Notes: a model not told the origin generated them from the sequence alone. DNA of 32,000 bases from Candidatus Saccharimonadota bacterium (GCA_016699145.1 CP064962.1:1020001-1052000); one strand, 5' to 3'. Positions 26 through 32,000 are shown, counted from the first letter of the stretch. Program-made: numbers and translations.

Positions 26-2275
26 ATGGGACAAGCAGCACGAAAACTCGACGGCTCAAGAGAGGTGCCCGATGCAGTGCCTGGTTCAGATCGCAGGAAC
101 CCTAGGCTTGATGAGATGAGAGGAGACCTTAAGAATCGTGTTCAAGATGTAATGGATAGAATGAAGCCCGCCAATGACGACGGTGCTTTTAGAGAAGAAG
201 CATCTCCCGCAGCAGAGGCGGGTGGAGGACATGGACATGGAGCTGCTACCAAGAAAAGTAAAAAGCCTACAATTCCCGAGTTGGGAGATGAAACGATTGC
301 TGATCTCATTGAAACAGGAACAACTGTCCGTGATTTTTACAGAAAATACAGAAAAGGAGAAGTCACTACTCCTGATATAGCTCGTCTTTTCAACGACGCT
401 TTGGATACTCTTGGTTTGGATAAACTGAGAGCCGGAAGCAATGTATACGCTTGGCTCATTGGCCTGGCGTTAGGAATTCCAAACCATCCTCCGGAAAAAA
501 TAACGCCAAACTATACCGATTTAACTGGACAAATTTTAGGTTTTCATCCAGATGAAGACAATCCACAATCGTACCACCACAGCGTAGAAGGTCTTATGGC
601 GACAATAAATGAGATGGATTTACACAGACACTATAGTCTCTTCTTTCATCAGCCCAACTTTACTAAGGCCCTAAGCACTGCCAAAGGGCAAAAAAAAGCA
701 AACGAACAGTTCTCAAAATTATTTGGACCGGATATCGAAACTCGAGCCCAGTTTTTAAATGAGTCTACGCAAGTCTTACTCAGACTGGGCTGTCACATCA
801 CCCCTGGACCTAATGCCGCAGATCCAACAGTTGGAGAACATATACATATTCACGACCTTCGTAATGTTCACGCCAACCATAGCCTCCACACTGTTGTGCA
901 AGCGATGCAAAATGCTCGTCAATGGGTTACTGAGGCCAACGTAGCTCAAATTGCAGAACCCGCTACTGAAGATGTGAAACTCAGTAAAGATATGCAAAAG
1001 TTTGGAGACACACTCATGGAGCATGTGAAAGGGAATACAGGTTTAGTCGTACAGTTCTTAGGCAACATAGAACCATTAGCTGCTTACGAAAAGGCCTTTC
1101 ATGCTCTTGCAAGCGATCAAGCTCTAGAAGAAGGAATGTATGAAGAGCCCGATGCAGTACGTGAACAAATTTGCCAGCTCTTTAACTTCTCGCCTAAAGA
1201 AAGAATCACCGCTGACGACCTCAACAGTTTCACTGAAGCACTGATAGGCCCCACACCTGCTCCAGCAACTGCTCCTTATCCTCTAGACCCAGACAACGGA
1301 GGAGCCTTAGGCCTATTAAGTGCAATCCCAGCAACGGATACTGTCACACGGGCAAAATGGGCTGCAATCAGGACTCGCATCAACGAAGCACGCGCTCGTT
1401 TATTAGCCACACCGACTGGGGCCACTCTTCCAGCTACCCGTTTGGGAGTGCTATTCCCACCAAAATCAGAGACCATCGACTACGCTAAATTTGGAAATCA
1501 ACTCGGAAAGGCAGTACGTGGCAAAACAGGGGTCAACCTTCGAAGAGCTCGTTCAGCCTTTTTACGTGGATGGGAACGAGATGAGTTCAGAGATCACTTT
1601 ATAAATCTTATGGATCCAACTCTCCTTACAGCCGTCTTGGATGGGACAAAGACCGATAAGGATGCACTCAAAACACAAATTGAAGAAGTGACAGGAGTAA
1701 AAGTCACTCGTATGACCCAGGCCTTATTTAGGAGTAGAATTCTAGCAAAAATGAATGAAATCGGAGATGGAACTCCAGGCAATGATGTAGATCCCGATGT
1801 AAGACTTAAACAAACGGCACTGAGAGCTATGTTATCACGACTCGCAAGAACAGTGCTTCCAAGCATTGACCCACTTTACCAAGAAGAAAGTTTGGAAAGA
1901 AACCTAGGAACCACCGTCAACGCAGCAACCCCCGCAAACCTTTCAGGAATTTTCGACAAACTCAATGCTGGCTTCTTTGTGCGCAATTACGGTTTACTCA
2001 ATCAAACTCCAGCCGCTGTGATGGCCCTAGCACCCGCACAACAACAACAATTCAAAGCGCAATTGGCAGGTTTCATTGGCGCACCTCGTAATTTGTCATG
2101 GAACGATGGGAACGTAACAACTTTGCTCGGGGAACTCACTCGTCAAGCTGCAGTAGCAGATCGTTTATCTCGAACAGGGACTCATGGAAATTCAGCACAC
2201 TTAAGGACATTCATTGCTCACGCAACTGGTTTTGTAGGCACACCCGTGATCCCTCACATGGCAACTTTGCCTTGA
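26..2275 (+). CDS. large hypothetical protein (749 aa), no recognisable domain, no signal peptide or TM helix
   Basis: Uninterrupted 2.25-kb ORF with an ATG start after an AT-rich leader. I recognise no family motif. His cluster EHIHIHDLRNVHANHSLH. Arg is encoded mostly by AGA/AGG, unlike neighbouring core genes (CGN). Confidence 0.6.
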   Translation: MGQAARKLDGSREVPDAVPGSDRRNPRLDEMRGDLKNRVQDVMDRMKPANDDGAFREEASPAAEAGGGHGHGAATKKSKKPTIPELGDETIADLIETGTTVRDFYRKYRKGEVTTPDIARLFNDALDTLGLDKLRAGSNVYAWLIGLALGIPNHPPEKITPNYTDLTGQILGFHPDEDNPQSYHHSVEGLMATINEMDLHRHYSLFFHQPNFTKALSTAKGQKKANEQFSKLFGPDIETRAQFLNESTQVLLRLGCHITPGPNAADPTVGEHIHIHDLRNVHANHSLHTVVQAMQNARQWVTEANVAQIAEPATEDVKLSKDMQKFGDTLMEHVKGNTGLVVQFLGNIEPLAAYEKAFHALASDQALEEGMYEEPDAVREQICQLFNFSPKERITADDLNSFTEALIGPTPAPATAPYPLDPDNGGALGLLSAIPATDTVTRAKWAAIRTRINEARARLLATPTGATLPATRLGVLFPPKSETIDYAKFGNQLGKAVRGKTGVNLRRARSAFLRGWERDEFRDHFINLMDPTLLTAVLDGTKTDKDALKTQIEEVTGVKVTRMTQALFRSRILAKMNEIGDGTPGNDVDPDVRLKQTALRAMLSRLARTVLPSIDPLYQEESLERNLGTTVNAATPANLSGIFDKLNAGFFVRNYGLLNQTPAAVMALAPAQQQQFKAQLAGFIGAPRNLSWNDGNVTTLLGELTRQAAVADRLSRTGTHGNSAHLRTFIAHATGFVGTPVIPHMATLP

Positions 2276-8094: not shown

Positions 8095-8436
8095 TCACTT
8101 CATTTTTAAATATCCAAATAAAGCGACTTCAACTTCTTTGAGTTTTTTCTTTTTCAACTTTCCAAAAACACGACGAATGATACTCTTTTTTAAACTGATG
8201 ATTTTACTGGGACGAATGTAAGATTGAACAGGCAAACTGCCCTGTGCCATATCGTGATCGTTCAATTTGATTTGATTTTTTTTAGAACTTTGACTGGTCA
8301 CTGCGACCAAAATACAATCTTCGCCTTTCAGTGTTTTGTTGGAAACAACAAGAGCAGGGCGACTCTTTACTGCACTCAAGTCGCTGAAAGGGAAAGGAAC
8401 GAGGACAAGATCTCCTTGCTGAAGTTTTATAGTCAT
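8095..8436 (-). CDS. mazF: MazF/PemK-family type II toxin (endoribonuclease)
   Basis: GDLVLVPFPFSDLSAVKSRPALVVS...ILVAVTSQ pattern typical of PemK/MazF. ATG 8436 overlaps the antitoxin stop (ATGA). Confidence 0.8.
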   Translation of the reverse strand: MTIKLQQGDLVLVPFPFSDLSAVKSRPALVVSNKTLKGEDCILVAVTSQSSKKNQIKLNDHDMAQGSLPVQSYIRPSKIISLKKSIIRRVFGKLKKKKLKEVEVALFGYLKMK

Positions 8437-8678
8437 TTTTGATCCAAATGGTTTTGATAAACATCGTCTGCATTTGTGGACCAAAAATCAAAACTCGATT
8501 CGGCCAAAGCATTAAAATCTTCCAAATCGTCCTCTAATACTTTGATTTCAATGGGCTTAAGGACAAAGCAATTGCTTTTCTCTTCCAACAAGCATTTTTG
8601 ATGTTTGAATTTTCGCCTCTCCGAAACAGGAATGGTGATTTGTCCTTTGGGAGAAATGCTGAGGATATAAGAAGCCAT
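8433..8678 (-). CDS. mazE: AbrB/SpoVT(MazE)-type antitoxin
   Basis: N-terminal SPKGQITIPVSERRKF swapped-hairpin motif and an acidic C-terminal tail. Located immediately upstream of the MazF-like gene and translationally coupled to it. Confidence 0.7.
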   Translation of the reverse strand: MASYILSISPKGQITIPVSERRKFKHQKCLLEEKSNCFVLKPIEIKVLEDDLEDFNALAESSFDFWSTNADDVYQNHLDQK

Positions 8679-11739: not shown

Positions 11740-13191
11740 ATGTCCACCCAACTCAGCACTGAAAAATTGCCCAAAGGCCTCTTCCTCGCGAGCTTCATTC
11801 TGCTGGCGTGGCTGGCTGTTTTTGCCGTCGTGGTGCGGTGGAACGCCCTGCCCAATCTAGCCGAACTTTTGCCCAAAGAAGAAACCGAAGCCTTTTGGAT
11901 GCTCGAGCTAGACGACTTAAAAAAGTCGCAAATGACAAGTCCTGCGGCCTTCAATACTTTTTTGAACACTCCTCTAGAAAATCTGCCTTGGGTGAGTCGC
12001 GTAGGAGGGGCTTGGATGAAAAGTGGAGACCTTTCGATTGCAGAAGTGAACTCCAAAGCTGAGGCGCAGGATTTTTTGGAAAGCCTCAAAACTCCCGAAG
12101 AAGAATTTTTGAAAGAATCCTTGGATGGATCTTTATGGAGCACGGTCTATTGTTACAGTGAAACTCAACCCTATTGCTTCACCTGGGTCGGGGATTTGCT
12201 TTTCGTTGCCGATCAAAAAGAGCTGCTGATTTCAGTGCAAAAAACAGCCTTGGGTGAGCTAGAAAACCTGGAATCGGACGGAAAATATCAAAATGTTCGA
12301 GGCCGCTTGGCACACTGGAACGGGGGTTTTTACTACTTGGACCTGCAAAAAGTCAGTCGCCGTTTCATGGACGATTTTGGAGCTGCAGCTTCTCTTTTAC
12401 AACTTTTCCCATCCATGGGCGGAGCACTGGAGTACCCCAATGCCGAAAGCTTTTTGGCGGTGGACAAAACCTTATTGGGGGATCAAGTTTTTTACCGTCC
12501 TGAAGAAAGCTACCAAAAAAAATTCTTACCCTGGACTTCCAAAGAACTCGCCTGGGAATGGGGAGGACAAAATCTCTACGCCCAATGGAAGCGCATGGAA
12601 GAAATTTTAAGTGAAAACAGTCCCTCTGCCGGCATCGTTTGGCGAGCGGAAACCATGGCGCTTTTCACCCGCTGGTTTGGAGCGGATTTCAATTTTGAAA
12701 CGCAATTTGCTCCTTTTTTGGATAAAGAGCAGTATTTTGCATTCACCCCAAACGGACATTTCCTTTTCATTACGGAACTCGAAGCAGGGGAGGCCAAACA
12801 GTTGGATGAACTTAAAAATCAACTCATTTCTAAATTGCCCGAACAAGCAATACTGGAACAAGTGAAGAAAAACGACTCTTTAAGCTATGAGCTAAAAGTC
12901 GACGGGCAAGTGCAATTCACTTTCATGGTTTTAAACAACGCCTTTATCCTTTCTGACTCCCCTCAATTGGCTTTGTCTACACTGGACAGAGCCCTTGGAC
13001 AAGAAGAACCTCGCAATTTACAGGAGTTTTCAGACCTTTTATCAGGGGCCGACGAAGTCGTGATTCTGCATTGTCCACTCCTGCCCGATGGGAATATACT
13101 AAAGACCCTGGGAGGGAAGGAAAGCATCCTCTCAACGCGAAAACTCTTTGACGACGGAGTCTTCACTCGCACTCATTTCAGTCATGATTAG
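11740..13191 (+). CDS. membrane-anchored hypothetical protein (possibly DUF3352-like)
   Basis: 483-aa ORF with one N-terminal TM helix (LFLASFILLAWLAVFAVVV). The family assignment is a weak recollection only. Confidence 0.55.
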   Translation: MSTQLSTEKLPKGLFLASFILLAWLAVFAVVVRWNALPNLAELLPKEETEAFWMLELDDLKKSQMTSPAAFNTFLNTPLENLPWVSRVGGAWMKSGDLSIAEVNSKAEAQDFLESLKTPEEEFLKESLDGSLWSTVYCYSETQPYCFTWVGDLLFVADQKELLISVQKTALGELENLESDGKYQNVRGRLAHWNGGFYYLDLQKVSRRFMDDFGAAASLLQLFPSMGGALEYPNAESFLAVDKTLLGDQVFYRPEESYQKKFLPWTSKELAWEWGGQNLYAQWKRMEEILSENSPSAGIVWRAETMALFTRWFGADFNFETQFAPFLDKEQYFAFTPNGHFLFITELEAGEAKQLDELKNQLISKLPEQAILEQVKKNDSLSYELKVDGQVQFTFMVLNNAFILSDSPQLALSTLDRALGQEEPRNLQEFSDLLSGADEVVILHCPLLPDGNILKTLGGKESILSTRKLFDDGVFTRTHFSHD

Positions 13192-17162: not shown

Positions 17163-18215
17163 ATGGAACAATATAACATGACGAAAGGCATTCGTGGACT
17201 GAGAAGATTACTTCGGCAGTTTAACGAAGCTACTTTAAAGCCCTGGCAGAGAGACGTACTTAGAGAAAGAATCCTTATTTTGGATTGGTACGACCATAAT
17301 GGAAAGAATAAAGCCAAGACTGCCAGGGCTTTTGAAACTTCTAGAAGCCACGTACAAAAGCTGGTGAAGGCCAGAAAGGAAGAAGGACTGGGTGGTCTTA
17401 TTCCGAAAATAACAGGACCCAATAACAAACGTGGATTTAATCTCACCAGTGAAGAGAAACAAGAGATTGAACGCTATGCAAGGATGTTTCCAGATTGGAG
17501 CCACAAGAAGCTTCACATGTTTCTTCACCAGCACAGCATTTCCACCTTGTACCGCTATTTGGCAGCAAAAGGATTACTGGTTCGTAATCGCTGCCCCGGG
17601 TTTCTCAAGAAACCAAAACCTAGGTCTGCTTGGAAAGTCCAAAGAAAAAAACTCCCCAAGGACTACCAAATCTTAAAACCTGGAGACTTGGTAGTCCTAG
17701 ATTCCATCGTTGAGTTTGTGGACAGCGCCTTCAACAAACTGTACTTCATTACCTGTGTGGATGTGGCCACCAGGATAGGTTTTGCACTCGTAACCAAGCA
17801 CCACAGTTCCAAGGCGGCCAAAGCTTTGCTGGAAAAGATGGAAGAAGTGCTCCAGACCAAGATTAAAGCTGTTTTAACAGACAACGGCAGTGAGTTCCTG
17901 GCGTACTTCCATAAAGCCTGCCAGCAGCAAGGGATTGAGCACTTCTTCACTCGCCCCAGAACACCAAAAGATAATGCGATTTGTGAGCGATTCAACCTTA
18001 CTTTGCAACAACACCTCTACTGGAGAGTGGACTTAACCAGTCCCATTTACAAGATTAATGAGGTGCTCGCGGATTGGCTCGTGGAGTATAATTGCCTTCG
18101 TCCACATGAATCTCTCAATATGAGACCTCCAGTTGCTCACTACTTTCATCTATTCTACTCCCCTCGCCCCATCCCCGAGGTGTACTTGAAACTATGGAAC
18201 CGGACAGTTCCTTGA
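17163..18215 (+). CDS. DDE transposase, integrase-core (rve) domain, IS481-like
   Basis: N-terminal HTH region; catalytic-core pattern VVLDS...LTDNGSEF...PKDNAICERFN and C-terminal YNCLRPHESL. AGA/AGG-rich Arg usage. The stop lies just beyond the candidate right IR and direct repeat. Confidence 0.9.
   Translation: MEQYNMTKGIRGLRRLLRQFNEATLKPWQRDVLRERILILDWYDHNGKNKAKTARAFETSRSHVQKLVKARKEEGLGGLIPKITGPNNKRGFNLTSEEKQEIERYARMFPDWSHKKLHMFLHQHSISTLYRYLAAKGLLVRNRCPGFLKKPKPRSAWKVQRKKLPKDYQILKPGDLVVLDSIVEFVDSAFNKLYFITCVDVATRIGFALVTKHHSSKAAKALLEKMEEVLQTKIKAVLTDNGSEFLAYFHKACQQQGIEHFFTRPRTPKDNAICERFNLTLQQHLYWRVDLTSPIYKINEVLADWLVEYNCLRPHESLNMRPPVAHYFHLFYSPRPIPEVYLKLWNRTVP
18149..18204. repeat. right terminal inverted repeat of the IS (imperfect, inside the transposase 3' end)
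   Basis: See the left IR entry; contains the perfect core TGTACTTGAAA at 18181-18191. Confidence 0.55.
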
Positions 18216-23019: not shown

Positions 23020-23088
23020 AACAGCCAGATTCATAGACATTGAATAAGGTGTTTGCTACAATCACCAAAACTTAACGACTTGCACGGC

Positions 23089-24117
23089 ATGTCCACCTCT
23101 ATTTCTGATTATACAATTGCCACCCTTGGAAGTCACACGGCCCTACAAATCCTAAAAGGGGCAAAAGACGAGGGCTTTAAAACGATGGCCATCATCACGC
23201 CCGAAACCAGACGCGTTTTCGAAAGTTTTCCAGTAGCCGACGAACTCATTGAAATTCCTAGTTTTGCCGATTATTTTCAAATTGAAGATCAACTCATTGC
23301 TAAAAATGCCATTGTGATTCCGCATGGGTCTTTTGTGAGCTATGTAGGAGTAGAAAATGTTGCAGCAAGAATGAAAGCGATGTACTACGGCTCCAGAGGA
23401 ATTTTACGTTGGGAGTCGGACCGCACCATGGAACGTGTATGGCTTAAAGATGCAGGTCTCAACCTGCCGAAAGTCTTCAAAACACCCGAAGAAATCGACC
23501 GTCCTGTGATTGTTAAATTTCACGGAGCCAAGGGAGGGTTCGGTTATTTTATTGCTAAATCTCCTGAAGAATTCCGGGAGCGCATCAAAGAATTTCCAGG
23601 AGAAAACGACTATGCCATCCAAGAGTACATTGTAGGAGTGCCCATGTATGTGCACTATTTCTATTCCCATTTGAACAATGAGCTAGAGATCATGAGTTTC
23701 GATAAACGTTACGAATCCAATGCCGACTCTATCGGGCGTATTGCAGCTAAAGACCAAATAGAAGCTGGAATCCGCACCAGCTAGACCATTACTGGAAACA
23801 TGCCCATCGTAGTGCGTGAATCCATGCTTCCCATGTTCTTCCGAATTGGCGAACAGGTCATCCAAAGTTCTCGAAAGCTAGAAGGAGCACCGAAAGGGCT
23901 CTTCGGTCCATTCTGTTTGGAAGGCATCATCGATCCCAACCTCCATTTCCGCGTCTTCGAAATTTCCGCCCGCATTGTGGCCGGAACCAATCCTTATATA
24001 GAAGGCTCCCCTTACACAGCGCTTCGCTATAAAGAGCCCATGTCCACGGGCCGCCGCCTGGCTCGTGAGCTCAAACAGGCTATAGAATCCGGTCGTTTGA
24101 CCGAGCTTTTGAGTTGA
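23089..24117 (+). pseudogene. purP: archaeal-type FAICAR synthetase PurP homologue interrupted by one in-frame TAG (23782-23784)
   Basis: IATLGSHTALQILKGAKDEGF, PHGSFVSY, ILRWESDR, VKFHGAKGGFGYF, FDKRYESN and PFCLEG motifs of PurP (ATP-grasp). ORFs 23089-23784 and 23800-24117 are in the same frame and are colinear across the stop with the paralogue at 25670-26872. Confidence 0.75.
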
Positions 24118-25669: not shown

Positions 25670-26872
25670 ATGCTGAACATTCCTGAAGTACTGGCCTCCT
25701 ACAACCTCAAAGAAATCACCATTGGTGTACTGGGGGGGCACAGCGCCCTGGAAGTATGTGAAGGGGCTAAAAAATTAGGATTTCAGACCCTCGTCGTAGC
25801 GCAAAAAGGACGCGAAAAGACTTATGAAAAATACTACCGCACTCGTACGCACGGGGCGCAGCAAAGTGCCAATCGAGAAGTGGGTTGCGTGGATCATCTC
25901 ATCACTCTCGATAAGTTCGCCGACATCGTAAAACCCGAAGTTCAAGAAGAACTCCGCGGCCGGAGCACGATCTTTGTACACAACCGTTATTTTTGGGTTT
26001 ACTGCGACTTCAACGCCATTGAAAACGACTTCAATGTGCCCATCTATGGCACTCGCCACCTTGTGCGTCTCGAAGAACGCGACCAACCGAACAATCAATA
26101 TGTACTCCTTGAAAAAGCTGGCATTCGTATTCCTAAAATCATACGCACCGGGGAGGCCACTGTGACTGGCGACGCACTCAAAACCGTACTCGACCAGCAT
26201 TTCGACACCAATAGAGGAGGGCCCATCATCGTGAAAGTGAACGAAGCAACCCGCACTTACGAACGCGCCTTCTTTGTGGCCGTCAGCACGGGTGACTTCG
26301 AAAAAAAATCCAAAGAAATGATTGCCAGCGGCAAAATCACGGAGGAAGGACTCAACAAAGCGGTGATTGAAGAATTCATCATCGGGGCTCAAGTGAATCT
26401 CAATTTTTTCTACTCACCCATCACGGGCGAACTCGAGTTGATGGGCACCGACATGCGTCGCCAAACCAGCCTCGATGGCTTTTTGCGCCTTAATGCCGAC
26501 GTCCAAAACGAACTGCTCAGTTCAGGCTACCAGTCCAGCATGGTGGAAACCGGACACGTTTCGGTGACCATGAAAGAATCCTTGCTCGAAAAAGCCTTCG
26601 ACATCGGGGAAAAATTTGTAAAAGCCTCTCAAGAAAATGCAGCCCCTGGCATACTCGGACCCTTCGCTTTGCAAGGGGCAGTCGCCGCCGAAAATGGACG
26701 TGAAGAATTTGTGATTTTTGATGTTTCCATGCGCATTCCCGGTTCACCTGGCACGCGTTTCACACCTTATACCAGTTACCTTTGGGGACGCTCCATGAGT
26801 TTTGGCGAACGCATCGCCCTCGACATCAAAGAAGCCCTCGACAGCGGACGACTGAGTGAGATTGTGACTTAA
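25670..26872 (+). CDS. PurP-family ATP-grasp protein (divergent FAICAR synthetase paralogue)
   Basis: 400-aa ORF colinear with the PurP homologue at 23089-24117 (GGHSALEV..GAKKLGF, YGTRHLVRLEERD, FFYSPITGELELMGTDMR, GPFALQG, IFDVSMRIPG, RIALDIKEALDSGRLSEI), with extra insertions. Confidence 0.8.
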   Translation: MLNIPEVLASYNLKEITIGVLGGHSALEVCEGAKKLGFQTLVVAQKGREKTYEKYYRTRTHGAQQSANREVGCVDHLITLDKFADIVKPEVQEELRGRSTIFVHNRYFWVYCDFNAIENDFNVPIYGTRHLVRLEERDQPNNQYVLLEKAGIRIPKIIRTGEATVTGDALKTVLDQHFDTNRGGPIIVKVNEATRTYERAFFVAVSTGDFEKKSKEMIASGKITEEGLNKAVIEEFIIGAQVNLNFFYSPITGELELMGTDMRRQTSLDGFLRLNADVQNELLSSGYQSSMVETGHVSVTMKESLLEKAFDIGEKFVKASQENAAPGILGPFALQGAVAAENGREEFVIFDVSMRIPGSPGTRFTPYTSYLWGRSMSFGERIALDIKEALDSGRLSEIVT

Positions 26873-27252
26873 GCGTTCAAGGCCCGTACCAAACGTTCGT
26901 CAAAAGTGAGCACTTTTGCTTCAAGATTTTTTGCTAAAACCAAAAGCGATATATCCACAAAAGAAAGTTTATGAGGTGAAAGTTCTTCAAAAAGAGCGAC
27001 ACTTTCTTCGAAATATTCTTCGTCCATTTTTAAAAGTTGAATTCCAGAATCTTCTGAAAGGAGGATCTCACTCAGTTGAATTGCCTCCTTCGAAGAAAAT
27101 CGTGACGTCATGAGTGTGAGTAGTTCTTGATACACTAAAAAAGAAACAAAATGAGGCTCTTCTGCACTAGATTTAAAAATATGACGCGCCTTTTTATGAA
27201 GAGAATCGACTGAATTGAAATAAGCGAAAATAAAAGAAGTATCAAGAATCAC
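26869..27252 (-). CDS. vapC: PIN-domain toxin (VapC-like)
   Basis: N-terminal ILDTSFIFAYF (first acidic PIN residue), SFVDISLLVLA and LTFDERL motifs. The GTG start overlaps the antitoxin stop (GTGA). Confidence 0.8.
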   Translation of the reverse strand: MILDTSFIFAYFNSVDSLHKKARHIFKSSAEEPHFVSFLVYQELLTLMTSRFSSKEAIQLSEILLSEDSGIQLLKMDEEYFEESVALFEELSPHKLSFVDISLLVLAKNLEAKVLTFDERLVRALNA

Positions 27253-27485
27253 CAGTCTTTTGGGTAAACAATTTCATCAATACGCTGTGAAATAGTAGGA
27301 TCATCACCCCAAGCAAAAGTAGGCATCTCAGCCAAGGATTTTCTTTTTTTCAATTGTTTTTTGACTTCCTTCTCAGTCAAATCTCGAATCCAAGCGGCCA
27401 TTGGTTTTTCTTCTTGAGCAGCCAAAACTTTGATCTGCATATAGAGCATTTTTGGAAAATAAACTTGTGCAGCCTGTTGTCGCAT
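27249..27485 (-). CDS. ribbon-helix-helix (CopG-like) antitoxin
   Basis: VYFPKMLYMQIKVLAAQEEKPMAAWIRDLTEKEV fits a beta-strand/helix/helix RHH layout. Start chosen at ATG 27485 (MRQQAAQ...). Coupled to the PIN gene. Confidence 0.6.
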   Translation of the reverse strand: MRQQAAQVYFPKMLYMQIKVLAAQEEKPMAAWIRDLTEKEVKKQLKKRKSLAEMPTFAWGDDPTISQRIDEIVYPKDW

Positions 27486-27564
27486 AAATACTGTTACATG
27501 TACAGTTAACAGTATAGATTGAAAGGCAATAAAAAACAAGCCTTTTTAAAACAACAATCCTCCC

Positions 27565-29808
27565 TTAAAGCAAAGGCATCTCAAAATCCGTGCTTTCTTC
27601 AATCACACTTTTGTTAACGGGAGCCATAGCATCCACCTCCCCGCCCTCGTCCCATTTTTTGAGTTGGTCTTCAACAACTTCACGCGACTGACAATAGGCG
27701 GCACGCGACGCTTCGATGATGGTGCGAGAGTGATCCACAGCACCGTATTGAATGTCCAAAGTTTTTCCAGAAAAAGCTTCGGTGAGCTCGCCATCGATGG
27801 ACATTTTTAAATAGAATTCACGCACGCCCAAATTGATGATGTCACGCACGCCAAATACAGGGGTATATTCACCTTCCAGCACGGCTGCATCCTCCGCCCC
27901 CACACGGAAACTGACCATGGAACCCACATTCCCGAATACCGTTTTTCGTACCTCTTCTTCAAGCTGCCCGATGTATTGATGGCCGATGGTTAAACACAGT
28001 CTATATTTACGTGCCTCCGACAAGATTTCTGCAAAAGTATCCGTCGCAAAATTCTGAAACTCATCCACATAAAAGTAAAAATCCTTACGATCTTCCTCAC
28101 GCATATCCGCACGGGCCATGGCCGCTTGATAAATTTTAGTGATGATCATGGAGCCAAGCAGCGCCGCATTTTCTTCACCCAAAAGTCCTTTAGAAACCTT
28201 CATGAGCAGAATTTTTTCGCCGTCCATAATGTCACGAAGATTGAAAGTATTTTTGGACTGCCCAATGATGTTTCGAATCATATTTGTAGACACGAGCTGG
28301 CCCACTTTATTGAGCAGAGGAGTGATGGCTTCGGCATCAAATTTTTCACTCCAACCAGCGAATTCATTCACCCAAAAGTTTTTCACCACACTGTCTTCAA
28401 TACGAGCCACAATTTTTTGTCGATAATTTTTATCGGAGAGCATTTTCAAAATGGACAGCACAGTCGTATTCGGCGAATCCAAAAGCGCCAAAGTCGTATA
28501 ACGCAGCACATGCTCCAAGCGATTGGACCAATTGGAGCCGAACAATTTTTTGAAAATATCAATGAAACCAATCGTGATTTGCATTTTGAATTTTTCATCC
28601 ACTTTTTCAAGCGGATTGAACGCAATGGGGAACTCGGTGTCTGCAGGATCAAAGTAAATCACATCCTTTATGCGATGCTCTGGGATGAAGCGCAAAATGT
28701 TGTCCACCAGATCACCGTGGGGGTCTAAAATGCCCACACCTTTGCCTGCCTCAATGTCGCTTTTGATCAAAAGTTCCAGCAGTTTGGACTTACCGGTACC
28801 GCTCTTTCCCACGGCATAAAGATGACGCCTTCGGTCCGCCCGCTTAATGCCAAAATTTTGAAAATTATTGTGATAATTCGTGGTTCCAAAAAAAGAAACA
28901 TCTTCTCGTGTGCTAGTGGGCAAGTCTTTCGGCGGTTCATGTTTTTTAGCCAAAATATGCACCACGTGTGGCACATGATCGGAGTTGGGGAAATGGTACA
29001 AAGTTGCAAGTTCATCCACACTCACAATCATCGGTTTTACAAAATGACGAGCCGTATATTCGCGTAAAAAAGCAGCCCCTCGACGAGGTCGTTCCAGCAT
29101 GAATTGATTGCGATCCGTTTTGTTGAATTGAAAAAACGCTTTCGAAAGCGCGGCCAAGTTTCTTTCAGCTTCAGAAACACTATCCGCCACCGCCCCAATA
29201 CGAATTTCAATCTCAAAAGGTTCATGTTCGCTCTTGTGCACAAAGTCGGCACTTTCTTCAGTATAAAAGGTCTTTTTATCTTTGAGACGTACATAATTTT
29301 TAAGCCTAAAACTGCGTCCCATCGAATTGAGCCGCATTTGCACTCGACGTCCAAAATGGTATTGCCAATCTTCTTCACGGGGCGAAATTAAAATTTGAAT
29401 CCACGCTTGATCATTACGGCCAAGTTTAGAAATCACCGAGAAAAGCCCGGACAAAGAATCGAGCTCAAAATCTTTGAATGTTTTGATGGGATAAATATCG
29501 CTTTTCCCAAAGCCCAGCCGCGTGCCCACGAGGTGTTGCTTTTGAGAATCATAAAAATGAGTGTAATCCTTCATTGGGCGGATCTCGCTATTGGGGAAGA
29601 TGGAATAAATGAGTCCTTCCACGAGTTTAGTCAAACTGGGTTCGCAGCCCACGAAAAAGTAGGTGTACTGACCATAACCAAAGAGTTCCAGCGACAAATG
29701 CTTGTGGTGCGCCGTATTGTGAAGATTTTCTAAAAGTTGAAGAAAAAGCTGCTCTTTTTTTGCATTTTCAGGCGTACCTTGCTCCAGAATGACTTGTAGA
29801 AATTCCAT
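27565..29808 (-). CDS. soluble P-loop ATPase of the VirD4/TraD (type IV coupling protein)-HerA/FtsK clade with an unassigned N-terminal domain
   Basis: Walker A AVGKSGTGKS (nt 28786-28809), ILDPHGDL, Walker B FYFYVDEFQNF and ARKYRLCLTIGHQYIGQL (TraG/TraD C-terminal-like). Residues 1-~330 match nothing I recognise. No TM helices. Confidence 0.8.
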   Translation of the reverse strand: MEFLQVILEQGTPENAKKEQLFLQLLENLHNTAHHKHLSLELFGYGQYTYFFVGCEPSLTKLVEGLIYSIFPNSEIRPMKDYTHFYDSQKQHLVGTRLGFGKSDIYPIKTFKDFELDSLSGLFSVISKLGRNDQAWIQILISPREEDWQYHFGRRVQMRLNSMGRSFRLKNYVRLKDKKTFYTEESADFVHKSEHEPFEIEIRIGAVADSVSEAERNLAALSKAFFQFNKTDRNQFMLERPRRGAAFLREYTARHFVKPMIVSVDELATLYHFPNSDHVPHVVHILAKKHEPPKDLPTSTREDVSFFGTTNYHNNFQNFGIKRADRRRHLYAVGKSGTGKSKLLELLIKSDIEAGKGVGILDPHGDLVDNILRFIPEHRIKDVIYFDPADTEFPIAFNPLEKVDEKFKMQITIGFIDIFKKLFGSNWSNRLEHVLRYTTLALLDSPNTTVLSILKMLSDKNYRQKIVARIEDSVVKNFWVNEFAGWSEKFDAEAITPLLNKVGQLVSTNMIRNIIGQSKNTFNLRDIMDGEKILLMKVSKGLLGEENAALLGSMIITKIYQAAMARADMREEDRKDFYFYVDEFQNFATDTFAEILSEARKYRLCLTIGHQYIGQLEEEVRKTVFGNVGSMVSFRVGAEDAAVLEGEYTPVFGVRDIINLGVREFYLKMSIDGELTEAFSGKTLDIQYGAVDHSRTIIEASRAAYCQSREVVEDQLKKWDEGGEVDAMAPVNKSVIEESTDFEMPLL

Positions 29809-29820
29809 AGATTAATTATA

Positions 29821-30612
29821 TCAGATTTGACCTGAAAAACAAAGCTCTGACAGAGGGGCTGGTGATACTTTTTGAAGAGCTTTGGGAGAGTCCACACTTA
29901 AATATTCTTCTTTGGAATAAGCTTGGTTAAAGATATGGAATTCCTTTTGTTGAAGGTTCACACATCCAAAACAATTCTTGCATCCCGTACAATTTTTAAG
30001 AAATGCGCTGTCAAAACAATTCGTACAATCCTGACTGTATTTTAAATTATAACAATTTTGACAATCCACACATTGATAAAGCAATTCAGATTGCAAAACA
30101 TAGGAGCAGTCCACGCAAGATCGGGAGTGTTTAATGACATTTCCATAAAGACAATCTTCATTGAAATCAGAATCAAAAACCAAGTAGCAGTTTTTGTTAT
30201 TCCCTGCATAGTTCGTGTAAACACAATTCATCTCAACAATATCACTCGCAGACACTACGTGAGGAAGAGGCACTTGCCGTAGAAGTTCATCGAATTGTTC
30301 AAAAAAAGGTCGATTGAAATCGAAGTCTTTCCCATACGAAAGAGGATCCCAACGATCGCCCCACCACTCTTTTTGATCGTAGACCTTATAAGGTTTTTCA
30401 GGTGAAATATTTGAAATAAGTTCACGTCCCGTCAGATCACATTTACGATGGTAAAGATTGCGTTCATTACGAAAAATCATTCGTCGTCTCATGCGTTCTT
30501 CGGGGCATAAGGTGGGTAAAGGCACATCTATCTTGGCATAAAAAGCCTGATCTTCATCAGTGATGATAAAGGGTTTCGTACTAACCCGACAAATTTTTTC
30601 TAATGCAGTCAT
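29821..30612 (-). CDS. Cys-rich repeat protein, paralogue A (degenerate zinc-ribbon-like N-terminus + one Cys module)
   Basis: 263 aa from ATG 30612 (ATGA overlap with the upstream stop). N-terminal F.I...D..FY.K...P.P..CP..R..RR...RN...LY.RKC pattern, WWGDRWD...FDFNRPFFEQF linker, then 14 Cys in ~100 aa. Confidence 0.7.
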   Translation of the reverse strand: MTALEKICRVSTKPFIITDEDQAFYAKIDVPLPTLCPEERMRRRMIFRNERNLYHRKCDLTGRELISNISPEKPYKVYDQKEWWGDRWDPLSYGKDFDFNRPFFEQFDELLRQVPLPHVVSASDIVEMNCVYTNYAGNNKNCYLVFDSDFNEDCLYGNVIKHSRSCVDCSYVLQSELLYQCVDCQNCYNLKYSQDCTNCFDSAFLKNCTGCKNCFGCVNLQQKEFHIFNQAYSKEEYLSVDSPKALQKVSPAPLSELCFSGQI

Positions 30613-32000
30613 GAATGAAAAAGTTGAGTGTAACAATGATTGCAATAAACTTGCTCGTCCTTCTCAAAAGGCACACGAATCCCTTGCTTGCAGTGTATGC
30701 AATTTCGGTCCCACAGTCGCCTTGGATTTCTCAACTTCAACCGATCCAAATAACGTTGTTGAGGGGCCCGTCTCGGCAGTGCAAGCCCCAGACTTTTATA
30801 AAGGGTCAGTTCTTGAGGGATGATCTTATAAAGCTTTCCTGAAACCTCGCATTTCAAGATTTGTTTACTGAAATCTTCAGGCACATCTTGAATGGAATCA
30901 GGGATAGTTATAAAAGCCCCCTGATAGTTGTCCTCAGGCTTTTCATCAATCCAATTGTATCCTCTGGCCTTTGCCTCCTCAGCAGTCAGCGGGAAGTATT
31001 CTTGTGCCAGTGTTTCATTGTAAGCGAAGGGGCTCAGCGTGGCTGGAAAAAACTCACCCCATTCACCCGTCTTTTTCATCTGATCAATGATTTGTGCTTT
31101 CAACGTTTCAAACTCCTCTTTGGAATATTCTGTATTGAGAATACAGTACTCACTTCGGTGAACTCCCACACAAGCAAAAAGATTTTTGCTGCTTTGGCAT
31201 AAATCTACATAAAGGCTGTCGCTCACATCGTAAGACACGTTTCCGAATTGAATATTCACACTTCGATTGCATCCATGACAGTTGTATTGAAGTTCACAAG
31301 CAAAGGCAGATTCATAAGTATCAAAACAGTCTTTGGCATAGCCTGTTTCATAGCAATAACGACAATCTTGCGAATAAATAACGTCGAAAGAATCAAAAAC
31401 GTTTTTAGACTGATAAATGCAATCTCCCGTACAATTTTCACTGATCAAAATAACAGATTGTTTCGGCGACTTTTGAATCATATTTTCGTACTCGTCCACG
31501 AAGTGTCGCAATTGTGCATAGGACCCCAAATTCACAGTTTTCATAAAGGCTTCATACTCTTCTTTAGTGAGTTGCTTGTTATAAACGCAGTAACTTTTTC
31601 GAATGAGGCCATTGCACATGAAAGAGTCGCTACAGTTGTAGCAGTTGTAAAGAAAAGCAGAATTAGAATTGTTGTCTGAAAGGAAATTATAGAAAGAGTG
31701 ATAGCCTCCGACCACATACTGACATTCGTAACACAGCTCACTTTTTTCAATATTGTAAGAGTCCGCGCAGTCTTTATTTTGAATCATCCATTTGGAATAA
31801 TAGACATTTTCGCAATAAGAAGAATCCACACATAAATAGCAGTTCCGATTGTTCTCTGCATGGTTGGTGTAGTCACAATTTTCACTGTTTTTTTGGACCA
31901 AAGCCAAGCGAGGAACTTTCAATTGCAGTTCTTTCAACTGTTCAAAAAAAGGACGCGAAAAATCAAAAGCTTTTCCAAATATTTTTGCATCCCATTTGTC
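30609..32000 (-). CDS. Cys-rich repeat protein, paralogue B (5' end beyond window; two Cys modules + C-terminal zinc-ribbon-like segment)
   Basis: The frame stays open to nt 32000 (DKWDAKIFGKAFDFSRPFFEQ precedes the ORF-track TTG start at 31937). Cys modules at ~31554-31889 and ~31113-31445. WGEFFPATLSPFAYNETLAQEYFP segment. C-terminal CIHC...CNHC. Confidence 0.7.
   Translation of the reverse strand, partial: DKWDAKIFGKAFDFSRPFFEQLKELQLKVPRLALVQKNSENCDYTNHAENNRNCYLCVDSSYCENVYYSKWMIQNKDCADSYNIEKSELCYECQYVVGGYHSFYNFLSDNNSNSAFLYNCYNCSDSFMCNGLIRKSYCVYNKQLTKEEYEAFMKTVNLGSYAQLRHFVDEYENMIQKSPKQSVILISENCTGDCIYQSKNVFDSFDVIYSQDCRYCYETGYAKDCFDTYESAFACELQYNCHGCNRSVNIQFGNVSYDVSDSLYVDLCQSSKNLFACVGVHRSEYCILNTEYSKEEFETLKAQIIDQMKKTGEWGEFFPATLSPFAYNETLAQEYFPLTAEEAKARGYNWIDEKPEDNYQGAFITIPDSIQDVPEDFSKQILKCEVSGKLYKIIPQELTLYKSLGLALPRRAPQQRYLDRLKLRNPRRLWDRNCIHCKQGIRVPFEKDEQVYCNHCYTQLFHS

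What the first reader, a model, noticed from the sequence alone, without database searches (positions are those of the whole stretch)
29821..32000. Three copies of a ~110-aa Cys module with Cys on a 3-residue register, plus zinc-ribbon-like segments that have lost half their Cys
Modules at ~31554-31889, ~31113-31445 (protein B) and ~29902-30234 (protein A) are mutually alignable. They end in a shared motif: SYCVYNKQLTKEEY, EYCILNTEYSKEEF, EFHIFNQAYSKEEY. In module 1 and module 3 every Cys-to-Cys spacing is a multiple of 3 by my count: 12,3,6,15,12,3,27,3,6,9 and 12,12,12,3,12,3,3,9,3,9,3,3,3. Module 2 is less regular. Such a strict register over ~100 residues suggests a beta-solenoid-like fold with a Cys ladder (disulfide or metal), as in 12-residue-repeat insect antifreeze proteins. 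The flanking F.I...D..FY.K..P.P..CP..R...RN...LY.R.C segments look like double zinc ribbons. In protein A each expected CxxC pair retains only the first Cys (CRVS, CPEER, CDLTG). In the C-terminus of protein B only the last two pairs (CIHC, CNHC) survive. The C-terminus of B and the N-terminus of A are the same module type, so the pair looks like a tandem duplication with domain reshuffling.
Basis: seen in the sequence. Interest (0 to 1): 0.65.

Follow-up and report, generated by a model that had tools for sequence, protein, structure and literature searches.

The report
Zinc-ribbon-capped tight beta-solenoid paralogs
The two genes belong to a very large, unnamed protein family of tiny candidate-phyla-radiation (CPR) bacteria whose cysteines sit on every third residue because they line the narrow core of a 12-residue-per-turn beta-coil. 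The family comes in tandem gene arrays, often next to an orphan secretion-type ATPase, and its function is unknown.

Summary
A recount reproduces every Cys spacing. All 11 Cys of module 1 and all 14 Cys of protein A's module fall in one mod-3 class (2 and 0 of 200,000 shuffles). Across 293 relatives, 97% of module-1 Cys share that register.

The modules are homologous (hhalign E 4e-36). AlphaFold2 (pLDDT 89, pTM 0.90) and profile autocorrelation give a beta-solenoid with 12-residue coils made of four [N/D]-[C/S]-x tripeptides. Beetle antifreeze protein TmAFP uses the same in-out-out geometry.

The solenoid Cys are not a disulfide or metal ladder. They swap freely with Ser, Ala, Val and Leu, i/i+6 pairs are depleted, and losses are graded. 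The flanking domains are genuine duplicated double zinc ribbons (E 4.5e-28), and their sites are lost all-or-none.

Protein B continues beyond the window (548 aa: ribbon, module, module, linker, ribbon). Protein A is a short paralog collinear with B's N-terminal half, so there is no domain reshuffling.

The family has over 3,000 clusters at 50% identity, is almost entirely Patescibacteria, and has no module match in Pfam, NCBIfam or the PDB. It forms arrays of 2-8 paralogs. The only recurrent neighbours are a TrmB-type regulator and a soluble VirD4-like ATPase, which lies immediately downstream here. Function remains inferred.

The parts
30609..32000 (-). Gene B, partial in the window (residues 86-548 of the 548-aa protein P0121, plus the stop codon). 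Architecture: N-terminal ribbon domain (mostly outside the window), solenoid module 1, solenoid module 2, conserved linker, C-terminal ribbon domain.
   Evidence: ORF and translation. The full-length protein was recovered at 100% identity. AF2 pLDDT 89.1, pTM 0.90.
31548..31910 (-). B solenoid module 1 with its cap (P0121 aa 116-236). About 9 coils of 12 residues. All 11 Cys are in one mod-3 register. It ends in the cap SYCVYNKQLTKEEY.
   Evidence: 2/200,000 shuffles; 97.3% of family Cys in register; period 12.
31104..31469 (-). B solenoid module 2 with its cap (P0121 aa 263-384). It is a homologue of module 1 with two one-residue register shifts. It ends in the cap EYCILNTEYSKEEF.
   Evidence: hhalign module 1 vs module 2, E 4e-36. 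Family Cys fall in two register classes, 2070 and 1000, with 67 in the third.
30891..31103 (-). B linker (P0121 aa 385-455), containing the conserved motif TGEWGEFFP..SPFAYNET..EYFPL. G400 and Y412 are invariant.
   Evidence: Alignment A1 invariant columns. pLDDT 81-96. Mean information 2.34 bits.
30612..30890 (-). B C-terminal double zinc-ribbon domain (aa 456-548). Site 1 is degenerate (C469, S472, A497, Q500). Site 2 is intact (C519, C522, C538, C541).
   Evidence: hhalign N-terminal vs C-terminal domain, E 4.5e-28. Weak Pfam zf_Tbcl_2 and TIGR04272 hits. Site 2 is CCCC in 279/293 relatives.
29821..30612 (-). Gene A (263 aa, P0001), a short paralog collinear with B residues 1-234. Its ATG overlaps B's TGA as ATGA. 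Its stop lies 12 nt before the next gene.
30313..30612 (-). A N-terminal ribbon domain (aa 1-100) with both zinc sites degenerate. Site 1 is C8, S11, C36, E39. Site 2 is C58, T61, D79, E82.
   Evidence: The same 'CSCE/CTCE' and 'C[TS][DE]x' patterns recur in the family.
29902..30261 (-). A solenoid module with its cap (aa 118-237). All 14 Cys are in one register. It contains a complete four-Cys turn (C208, C211, C214, C217). It ends in the cap EFHIFNQAYSKEEY.
   Evidence: 0/200,000 shuffles. AF2 DSSP shows 'E--E--E' through aa 146-221 with pLDDT 84-93.
29824..29901 (-). A's 26-residue C-terminal tail (LSVDSPKALQKVSPAPLSELCFSGQI). It matches nothing in the family and has low confidence. It marks where the second module, linker and C-terminal ribbon are missing.
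   Evidence: pLDDT 38-60. The closest relative, P0002 (70% identity), continues into a second module. No remnant is found in the window.
27565..29808 (-). VirD4/TraD/TrwB-like P-loop ATPase (747 aa), soluble, immediately downstream in the same operon-like arrangement. It is a recurrent neighbour of the paralog arrays.
   Evidence: Pfam T4SS-DNA_transf 36.6 bits (cut-off 20.1) and TrwB_AAD_bind 35.7 bits. NCBIfam hits are all below cut-off. No hydrophobic segment. 73% identical and syntenic in L001. Present in 23 of 85 loci.

Best explanation
B and A are two adjacent members of a large, undescribed, soluble protein family of Patescibacteria (CPR).

Shown or predicted structure:
- The standard protein is about 550 aa: ribbon domain, solenoid module, solenoid module, conserved linker, ribbon domain.
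- Each module is predicted to be a tight beta-solenoid of about nine 12-residue coils.
- Each coil is four tripeptides of the form [N/D]-[C/S/small]-[variable]. Every third side chain points into a core too narrow for anything larger than Cys, Ser, Ala, Val or Leu. That produces the strict Cys register.
- The solenoid Cys act as interchangeable small core residues in a reducing cytoplasm. They are not obligate disulfides or metal ligands.
- Each end domain is a basic, Arg-rich double zinc ribbon with two four-Cys sites. These sites are lost all-or-none in different paralogs. B keeps two of its four sites and A keeps none.
- A is a natural short form (ribbon plus one module).

Inferred function (not shown): the rigid, acidic solenoids, whose outward faces vary, act as a non-enzymatic binding scaffold. 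The conserved ribbon domains, caps and linker are the constant working parts. The family acts together with the co-transcribed soluble VirD4-like ATPase, as its cargo, adaptor or nucleic-acid-handling partner, under a TrmB-type regulator.

The confidence of 0.65 is for the whole statement. The structural and evolutionary part alone would be about 0.8, and the functional link to the ATPase about 0.25-0.3.
For: Register:
- exact spacings; 2 and 0 of 200,000 shuffles.
- 3849 of 3955 module-1 Cys in one class across 293 relatives. The register class is 35.5% C and 18.5% S, and the preceding position is 34% N or D.

The 12-residue coil:
- DSSP periodicity in two AF2 models.
- Independent profile autocorrelation of 0.49, 0.43 and 0.38 at 12, 24 and 36.
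- The TmAFP geometry out-in-out-out-in... with inward C2, S5, C8, A11 (PMC8038014).

Duplications: hhalign E 4e-36 for the modules and 4.5e-28 for the ribbon domains.

The Cys are not ligand sets:
- Per-column Cys is about 20-90% with Ser, Val, Leu or Ala as alternatives.
- d=6 O/E is 0.73-0.90.
- The last turn shows graded counts (160/90/39 with 4/3/2 Cys; 4 with one) with r 0.07. By contrast, zinc site N2 is bimodal (87 sequences with 4 Cys, 175 with 1, 27 with none, 1 with 2-3) and zinc-site r is 0.46-0.75.

Soluble: maximum KD19 is 0.79-0.83.

Family size and taxonomy:
- 6212 hits.
- 3016 clusters at 50% identity.
- More than 573 genomic hits, almost all Patescibacteria.

Neighbourhood:
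- Arrays of 2-8 paralogs at a median 43% identity.
- Unbiased clustering of neighbours finds only TrmB (26 loci) and the VirD4-like ATPase (23 loci) as recurrent.
- In the window the genes are arranged B, A, ATPase with a 4-nt overlap and a 12-nt spacer.

Charge and conservation:
- Modules have pI 4.4-5.0 and ribbon domains pI 8.5-9.4.
- Caps, ribbon domains and linker are more conserved than the coils, and outward positions are the most variable.

Orphan T4CP homologues are abundant in Patescibacteria and rarely lie near virB4 (PMC12102498).
Against: - I could not inspect model coordinates. Handedness, cross-section and Cys-Cys distances rest on DSSP strings and sequence periodicity only.
- pLDDT drops to 65-81 in the middle coils of both B modules and to 57-68 in A's first coils.
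- Foldseek finds no significant structural neighbour. The best E-values are 7.6e-3 (B vs PDB), 0.35 (A vs PDB) and 2.7e-2 (B vs viral), and TM-scores for the top-ranked, long alignments are at most about 0.15. The weak hits mix left- and right-handed helices.
- The last turn of module 1 is four Cys in 55% of relatives, so a facultative metal site there is not excluded.
- The functional part is only guilt by association. The ATPase follows the array in 11 of 45 loci with enough sequence downstream, and TrmB precedes it in 18 of 57 loci. Some members are solitary, for example L063.
- There are no expression, binding or metal data.
Confidence: 0.65

Rival explanations
1. Metal-binding Cys ladder. 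The inward-facing Cys of successive coils coordinate a row of metal ions or Fe-S clusters, so the protein stores, buffers or senses metal or carries electrons, like an ordered metallothionein.
For: - Cys density is 6.0-6.8%, against 0.77% in the other 23 long ORFs of the window.
- Up to four inward Cys per turn. The C205/208/211/214 turn is CCCC in 160 of 293 relatives.
- Weak enrichment of stacked i/i+12 Cys pairs (O/E 1.2-1.27).
- Two loci lie beside Fur-ZnuABC or CopA-CsoR genes.
Against: - Cys per module ranges from 4 to 20.
- Every Cys column tolerates Ser, Ala, Val or Leu.
- Losses are independent and graded (r 0.07; observed CCCC 0.55 vs 0.51 expected), unlike the all-or-none zinc-ribbon sites in the same proteins.
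- Metal-homeostasis neighbours are not recurrent: Fur in 2 loci, and CopA only in L086/L087.
- No Fer4 or other metal-cluster Pfam hit.
Confidence: 0.15
2. Disulfide-stapled, TmAFP-like secreted solenoid, such as an ice-binding or surface-adhesion protein, as the antifreeze analogy suggests.
For: The same 12-residue coil and inward C/S pattern as TmAFP. Peribacteria are known to encode many Cys-rich exported proteins (PMC4736985).
Against: - No signal peptide or hydrophobic segment.
- Intracellular-type zinc ribbons at both ends.
- The i/i+6 Cys pairs that make TmAFP's disulfides are depleted.
- The positions flanking the inward residue are N/D and Y/E/K/R rather than Thr, so there is no TxT face.
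- No sequence match to any PDB chain at E up to 10 other than chance-level hits.
- The Cys-rich proteins described in the Peribacteria paper are different, large, signal-peptide proteins.
Confidence: 0.03
3. The family works independently of the neighbouring ATPase, for example as a nucleic-acid-binding or DNA-mimic regulator, or as a cytoskeletal or scaffold element. The gene adjacency would be only inherited synteny within Peregrinibacteria and Gracilibacteria.
For: - Most loci (62 of 85) show no ATPase within 6 kb, and solitary copies exist, for example L063 in a Bdellovibrionota MAG.
- Basic Arg-rich ribbon helices plus acidic solenoids fit nucleic-acid binding or mimicry, as in pentapeptide-repeat proteins (my own knowledge).
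- A ribbon-less form of about 315 aa with two modules exists.
Against: - The ATPase and TrmB are the only recurrent neighbours among 787 neighbouring ORFs.
- The linkage spans several CPR classes (Peribacteria, Gracilibacteria, Abawacabacteria, and 'Nomurabacteria'-labelled MAGs).
- The genes are translationally packed in the window.
- Many loci are too short, or the arrays too long, to see the end of the array.
Confidence: 0.3
4. The register is a chance or compositional artefact, or these are non-coding or spurious ORFs.
Against: Shuffle tests. The register holds across the family. There are thousands of conserved homologues. The AF2 models are confident.
Confidence: 0.01

Closest known systems
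Beetle hyperactive antifreeze proteins (TmAFP, DcAFP, DhbAFP; PDB 1EZG)
   Same: A tight beta-helix with a 12-residue coil. The side-chain pattern is out-in-out-out-in..., with small inward residues (Cys, Ser, Ala) at every third position. Occasional 13-residue coils occur, like the register shifts in module 2.
   Different: - No detectable sequence homology.
- No TxT ice-binding face.
- No signal peptide.
- The i/i+6 disulfide pairs are not conserved and are in fact depleted.
- The modules are embedded between zinc-ribbon domains in a 550-aa cytoplasmic bacterial protein.
- Handedness here is unknown.
zf_Tbcl / zf_Tbcl_2 'probable treble-clef zinc finger' (PF13451, PF23477) and the TIGR04272 CxxC-x17-CxxC domain
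   Same: The end domains carry paired CxxC knuckles. B's C-terminus hits PF23477 and TIGR04272 weakly. Several homologues carry precomputed PF13451 or PF23477 hits. Foldseek gives local matches (probability 0.98-1.0) to phage 'putative zinc-ribbon domain' proteins.
   Different: - Each end domain has two sites plus an Arg-rich helix (F.I...D..FY.K...P.P..CP.CR..RR...RNER.LY.R.C).
- B's score is below the Pfam and NCBIfam cut-offs.
- Many sites are replaced by C-[S/T]-x-[E/Q] patterns.
- The function of the Pfam families is itself unknown.
Other repeat beta-helices: the left-handed hexapeptide helix (LpxA, LpxD, GlmU, gamma-carbonic anhydrase), the pentapeptide-repeat quadrilateral helix (MfpA, Qnr) and bactofilins
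   Same: Repeat-encoded beta-solenoids with small or aliphatic inward ladders and Asn/Asp corner residues. The weak Foldseek hits for B are all left-handed beta-helix proteins. An acidic solenoid surface recalls the pentapeptide-repeat DNA mimics.
   Different: - The coil is 12 residues (4x3), not 18 (3x6) or 20 (4x5).
- No period-5 signal, and the period-6 signal is no stronger than that of any other multiple of 3.
- No Pfam Hexapep, Pentapeptide or Bactofilin hit.
- Foldseek TM-scores are at most about 0.1 for the top-ranked B hits.
Type IV coupling proteins and their substrates (VirD4, TraD, TrwB), including the orphan T4CP homologues of Patescibacteria (PMC12102498)
   Same: The downstream gene has the T4CP P-loop domain. 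Like most Patescibacteria T4CP homologues, it does not lie beside virB4. A set of diversified paralogs beside a coupling-type ATPase resembles an effector repertoire.
   Different: - The ATPase has no membrane anchor and carries a distinct soluble N-terminal domain (DUF8128 in relatives).
- No VirB components are in the window.
- There is no evidence that B or A are translocated.

Membership tests
TmAFP-type beetle antifreeze proteins | 12-residue coil with every third residue small and pointing inward | tested here: met
   DSSP period of 12 in two AF2 models. Autocorrelation maxima at 12, 24 and 36. The register class is C, S, A, V or L. The geometry of the reference family comes from PMC8038014.
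TmAFP-type beetle antifreeze proteins | One conserved intracoil disulfide per coil (Cys i and i+6) | tested here: not met
   Cys co-occurrence at d=6 is depleted (O/E 0.73-0.90, r -0.04 to -0.12). Cys columns are variable.
TmAFP-type beetle antifreeze proteins | TxT ice-binding ladder flanking the inward Cys | tested here: not met
   The flanking positions are N, D, Y or F before and Y, E, K, R or F after. Thr is not enriched.
TmAFP-type beetle antifreeze proteins | Secreted (signal peptide), with detectable sequence homology | tested here: not met
   No hydrophobic N-terminus. phmmer against all PDB chains finds no antifreeze protein at E up to 10.
zf_Tbcl / zf_Tbcl_2 zinc ribbon (PF13451, PF23477) | Two CxxC knuckles forming one four-Cys site | tested here: met
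   B site C2 (C519, C522, C538, C541) and site N2 are intact. Family sites behave all-or-none.
zf_Tbcl / zf_Tbcl_2 zinc ribbon (PF13451, PF23477) | Profile score at or above the Pfam gathering threshold | tested here: not met
   B scores 21.2 bits against a cut-off of 27, and A has no hit. Several homologues do carry precomputed PF13451 or PF23477 hits, so at family level the relationship is likely.
zf_Tbcl / zf_Tbcl_2 zinc ribbon (PF13451, PF23477) | Zinc actually bound | not testable with these tools
   This needs metal analysis of purified protein.
Hexapeptide-repeat left-handed beta-helix | Period of 6 and 18 with an [LIV]-G-x4 repeat; Pfam Hexapep hit | tested here: not met
   No Hexapep hit. 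Autocorrelation at 18 (0.30) is no higher than at other multiples of 3, and 12 is the maximum. Foldseek hits have E at least 7.6e-3 and TM at most about 0.1.
Pentapeptide-repeat proteins | Period of 5 and 20 with an A(D/N)LXX repeat | tested here: not met
   Period-5 power is about 0-0.19, against 1.0-1.6 at period 3. No Pfam hit.
Type IV coupling protein (for the neighbour at 27565-29808) | VirD4/TrwB-type P-loop domain | tested here: met
   PF02534 at 36.6 bits (cut-off 20.1) and PF10412 at 35.7 bits (cut-off 20.5).
Type IV coupling protein (for the neighbour at 27565-29808) | N-terminal membrane anchor and linkage to virB4 or a relaxase | tested here: not met
   No window of 19 residues exceeds KD 1.04. 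No VirB or relaxase genes were found in the window. All NCBIfam T4CP equivalogs score far below cut-off.

The most novel reading that the evidence does not exclude
The TrmB regulator, the tandem array of ribbon-solenoid paralogs and the soluble orphan VirD4-like ATPase may together form a previously unrecognised CPR-specific system. In it an exapted coupling-protein ATPase would recognise the invariant C-terminal zinc ribbon and conserved linker and would handle a diversified repertoire of rigid solenoid proteins. These could be cargo delivered to host cells, or adaptors that present nucleic acid or protein clients. That would also explain what the thousands of orphan T4CP homologues in Patescibacteria are for.
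Probability: 0.2. Interest if true: 0.85.

Novelty: new variant of a known kind. Interest (0 to 1): 0.62.

Why it matters
- The family has over 3,000 clusters at 50% identity and up to eight or more copies per roughly 1-Mb genome, which is more than 1% of coding capacity. That makes it one of the larger unexplained investments of CPR bacteria, and its solenoid module has no Pfam, NCBIfam or PDB entry.
- Structurally it would be the first 12-residue 'tripeptide-repeat' tight beta-helix outside the beetle antifreeze proteins. It would also show that such a helix can be built without disulfides.
- The same proteins contain zinc sites lost all-or-none and solenoid Cys lost gradually. This gives a clean internal contrast for telling ligand Cys from packing Cys by sequence alone.
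- The recurrent linkage to an orphan, soluble VirD4-like ATPase gives a concrete, testable lead on a question left open in the literature, namely what non-T4SS-linked coupling-protein homologues do in Patescibacteria (PMC12102498).

Tried and rejected
- The look-up of encoding contigs for the window's own protein A failed because it is not on record. I took context from relatives instead.
- PDB sequence searches for both proteins gave only chance-level hits.
- Foldseek against the PDB (B and A) and against the viral library (B) gave nothing with E at or below 0.001. There were only generic beta-helix hits and local zinc-ribbon matches.
- PADLOC gave no hit for B or A, and only a weak mad8/HerA hit for the ATPase.
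- Literature searches for the Pfam identifiers and for Peregrinibacteria zinc-ribbon paralogs found nothing.
- The Cys-rich proteins described in the Peribacteria genome paper are a different set of large, secreted proteins.
- The metal-homeostasis idea came from Fur-ZnuABC in L002 and CopA-CsoR in L086. I rejected it because these genes do not recur across loci.
- Apparent long 'fusion' ORFs of 640-1600 aa are read-through artefacts of translating with code 25.
- The TmAFP-like i/i+6 disulfide signature was tested and is absent.
- A four-Cys metal site in the last turn of module 1 was tested for concerted loss and shows none.
- A search for remnants of A's missing C-terminal half in the window found nothing.
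Full report
WHAT IS THERE

The region holds two co-oriented minus-strand genes.
- B occupies 30609..>32000 and runs off the window end. The full protein was recovered at 100% identity as P0121, 548 aa, from a 1.34-Mb contig.
- A occupies 29821..30612 (263 aa, P0001). Its ATG overlaps B's TGA as ATGA.
- A's stop lies 12 nt before the ATG of a 747-aa VirD4/TraD-like ATPase at 27565..29808.

CHECK OF THE OBSERVATION

- All 11 Cys of B's module 1 and all 14 Cys of A's module lie in one residue class modulo 3. Shuffling the same sequences reaches this in 2 and 0 of 200,000 trials. Module 2 (7 of 11) is not significant on its own.
- The three shared end motifs and the half-degenerate CxxC pairs are as described.
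- Cys makes up 6.0% of B and 6.8% of A, against 0.77% in the other 23 long ORFs of the window.

HOMOLOGY AND ARCHITECTURE

- Pfam, NCBIfam and PDB sequence searches give nothing for the modules. There are only sub-threshold zinc-finger hits at B's C-terminus.
- Database searches find 206 relatives of A and 6212 relatives of B. A profile of the three window modules finds 3016 clusters at 50% identity. Where a source gives a name, it is 'hypothetical protein', apart from two annotated 'zinc-ribbon domain containing protein'.
- An alignment of 117 full-length members (A1) shows one standard architecture of about 550 aa. It runs N-terminal ribbon domain, helix, module 1, helix, module 2, conserved linker (TGEWGEFFP..SPF.YNET), C-terminal ribbon domain.
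- Profile-profile comparison shows that the two modules are homologous (E 4e-36) and that the two end domains are homologous (E 4.5e-28).
- A aligns collinearly with B 1-234 (48% identity, E 1e-71). It is therefore a paralog that lacks module 2, the linker and the C-terminal ribbon.
- A's closest relative, P0002 (70% identity), still has the second module. No remnant of the missing half is present in the window.
- Other natural short forms of about 250-265 aa exist. So does a form of about 315 aa with two modules and no ribbons.
- Apparent longer fusions are artefacts of translating with code 25.

THE FOLD

- AlphaFold2 on A1 gives pLDDT 89.1 and pTM 0.90 for B. On A2 it gives pLDDT 81.7 for A.
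- When the sequence is laid out in rows of 12, the DSSP strings repeat as '-EEEE--E--E-'. In A they read 'E--E--E' through residues 146-221.
- Independent of any model, the autocorrelation of family profile columns peaks at every multiple of 3 (about 0.3). The maxima are at 12, 24 and 36 (0.49, 0.43, 0.38).
- In 293 non-redundant relatives, 3849 of 3955 module-1 Cys (97.3%) share one register. Module 2 uses two registers separated by single-residue insertions.
- The register position is 35.5% Cys and 18.5% Ser, with the rest mostly Leu, Asn, Ala, Val and Thr.
- The preceding position is rich in Asn and Asp. The following position is variable and often aromatic or charged.
- This in-out-out pattern on a 12-residue coil is the one described for TmAFP-type antifreeze proteins. 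There the inward residues are C2, S5, C8 and A11 (PMC8038014).
- Foldseek finds no significant neighbour in the PDB or the viral library. It returns only weak generic beta-helix hits and local zinc-ribbon matches.
- I could not inspect coordinates, so handedness and exact Cys geometry remain open.

WHAT THE CYSTEINES DO

Within the same proteins the two kinds of Cys behave differently.
- The ribbon sites are all-or-none. Site N2 has four Cys in 87 sequences, one in 175, none in 27 and two or three in a single sequence. The mean pairwise correlation at the four zinc sites is 0.46-0.75.
- Degenerate ribbon sites follow fixed replacement patterns: C-[S/T]-C-E, C-[T/S]-[D/E]-x and C-[T/S]-x-Q.
- The C-terminal site C2 is four Cys in 279 of 293 sequences.
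- In the solenoid, Cys counts range from 4 to 20 per module, and each column tolerates Ser, Ala, Val or Leu.
- The i/i+6 pairs that form TmAFP's disulfides are depleted (O/E 0.73-0.90). Stacked i/i+12 pairs are only mildly enriched (1.2-1.27).
- The most conserved four-Cys turn (C205, C208, C211, C214) degrades gradually and independently. Counts are 160, 90 and 39 with four, three and two Cys, plus 4 with one, and r is 0.07. CCCC is observed at 0.55 against 0.51 expected.
- Neither B nor A has a hydrophobic segment.

I conclude that the solenoid Cys are small core-packing residues of a cytoplasmic protein. They are not an obligate disulfide or metal ladder. A facultative metal site in the last turn is not excluded.

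CONTEXT AND LIKELY FUNCTION

- A scan of species-representative genomes gives more than 573 confirmed hits. Nearly all are Patescibacteria: Peregrinibacteria/Peribacteria, Gracilibacteria, Abawacabacteria and others. One Bdellovibrionota MAG is the exception.
- The genes form co-oriented tandem arrays of 2-8 paralogs within 13-kb loci. Median within-array identity is 43%, so the duplications are old.
- Clustering all 787 neighbouring ORFs shows only two recurrent neighbours. One is a divergently transcribed TrmB-family regulator (26 loci). The other is the VirD4-like ATPase (23 loci).
- In the closest long relative (L001) the order is TrmB, 547 aa, 548 aa, ATPase. The ATPase there is 73% identical to the window's.
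- The ATPase has the T4CP P-loop domain but no membrane anchor.
- A recent survey found 5,713 VirD4-type homologues in 2,918 Patescibacteria genomes. Only 148 lie near virB4, and the authors raised possible exaptation (PMC12102498).
- The solenoid modules are acidic (pI 4.4-5.0). The ribbon domains are basic and carry a conserved Arg-rich helix (pI 8.5-9.4).
- Caps, ribbon domains and linker are better conserved than the coils, and the outward positions of the coils are the most variable.

From this I infer, without direct evidence, a non-enzymatic binding scaffold. Its ends would be constant and its solenoid faces diversified. It would work with the adjacent ATPase as cargo, adaptor or nucleic-acid-handling partner.

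Metal-homeostasis neighbours seen in two loci do not recur. No defence-system model matches.

VERDICT

The disulfide-or-metal ladder and the domain reshuffling are not.

The object is a new, very large CPR family. It combines a known kind of fold, the tight 12-residue beta-helix, in a new disulfide-free cytoplasmic setting with duplicated zinc-ribbon domains. Its gene neighbourhood suggests a new system, but the evidence does not establish one.

Noticed in passing
window 23053-24117 (+); second copy at 25670-26872 (+): Two purP genes (DUF1246/DUF1297, the archaeal-type FAICAR synthetase). The first copy is a single reading frame interrupted by one in-frame TAG at 23782-23784, and Pfam coverage continues across the stop. 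This could be a pseudogene, a sequencing error or read-through. Two purP genes also lie near the array in L001 and L005.
   Followed up: partly
window 27565-29808 (-): The VirD4/TraD-like ATPase has no hydrophobic segment and carries a soluble N-terminal domain of about 320 aa (annotated DUF8128 in relatives). It resembles the orphan T4CP homologues reported as widespread in Patescibacteria and away from virB4 (PMC12102498).
   Followed up: partly
window 26869-27252 (-) and 27249-27539 (-): A PIN/VapC-like toxin gene is preceded by a small ORF that overlaps it by 4 nt. This is probably a VapBC toxin-antitoxin pair directly downstream of the ATPase. A PIN gene also lies beside the array in L004, but on the opposite strand.
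   Followed up: no
window 8095-8484 (-): A MazF/PemK-type toxin gene. I did not examine its partner antitoxin.
   Followed up: no
window 17163-18215 (+): An IS-type transposase (HTH plus rve integrase core) lies between mutL and an M23/LysM peptidase gene.
   Followed up: no
window 26-2275 (+) and 11740-13191 (+): Two long ORFs (749 aa and 483 aa) have no Pfam match at E up to 1e-4.
   Followed up: no
related proteins P0277, P0299, P0314, P0356, P0359, P0275; locus L086 8001-8945: A distinct architecture of about 315 aa has two solenoid modules, no zinc-ribbon domains and a short GxYGxF.PS.YP.ED tail. It also comes from Peregrinibacteria and Gracilibacteria, and in L086 it lies beside a standard 556-aa member.
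   Followed up: partly
related protein P0276 (731 aa): One family member carries an N-terminal extension of about 185 aa that looks like a GNAT acetyltransferase, judged by eye from the sequence. I did not check it with a profile search, and I did not rule out a gene-calling fusion.
   Followed up: no
L063 6004-7647 (Bdellovibrionota MAG, 3.26-Mb contig): A single full-length family member outside the CPR, with unrelated neighbours (M20 peptidase, PMT glycosyltransferase, DUF4397). This could be horizontal transfer into a predatory lineage or a binning or labelling issue.
   Followed up: partly
L030/L079 (contig CALRAD010000002.1) and L006, L013, L014: Very long arrays of at least 7-10 paralogs in a row. 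In L079 three TrmB-like genes are interleaved, which suggests that the repeated unit is a TrmB gene plus one to three paralogs.
   Followed up: partly
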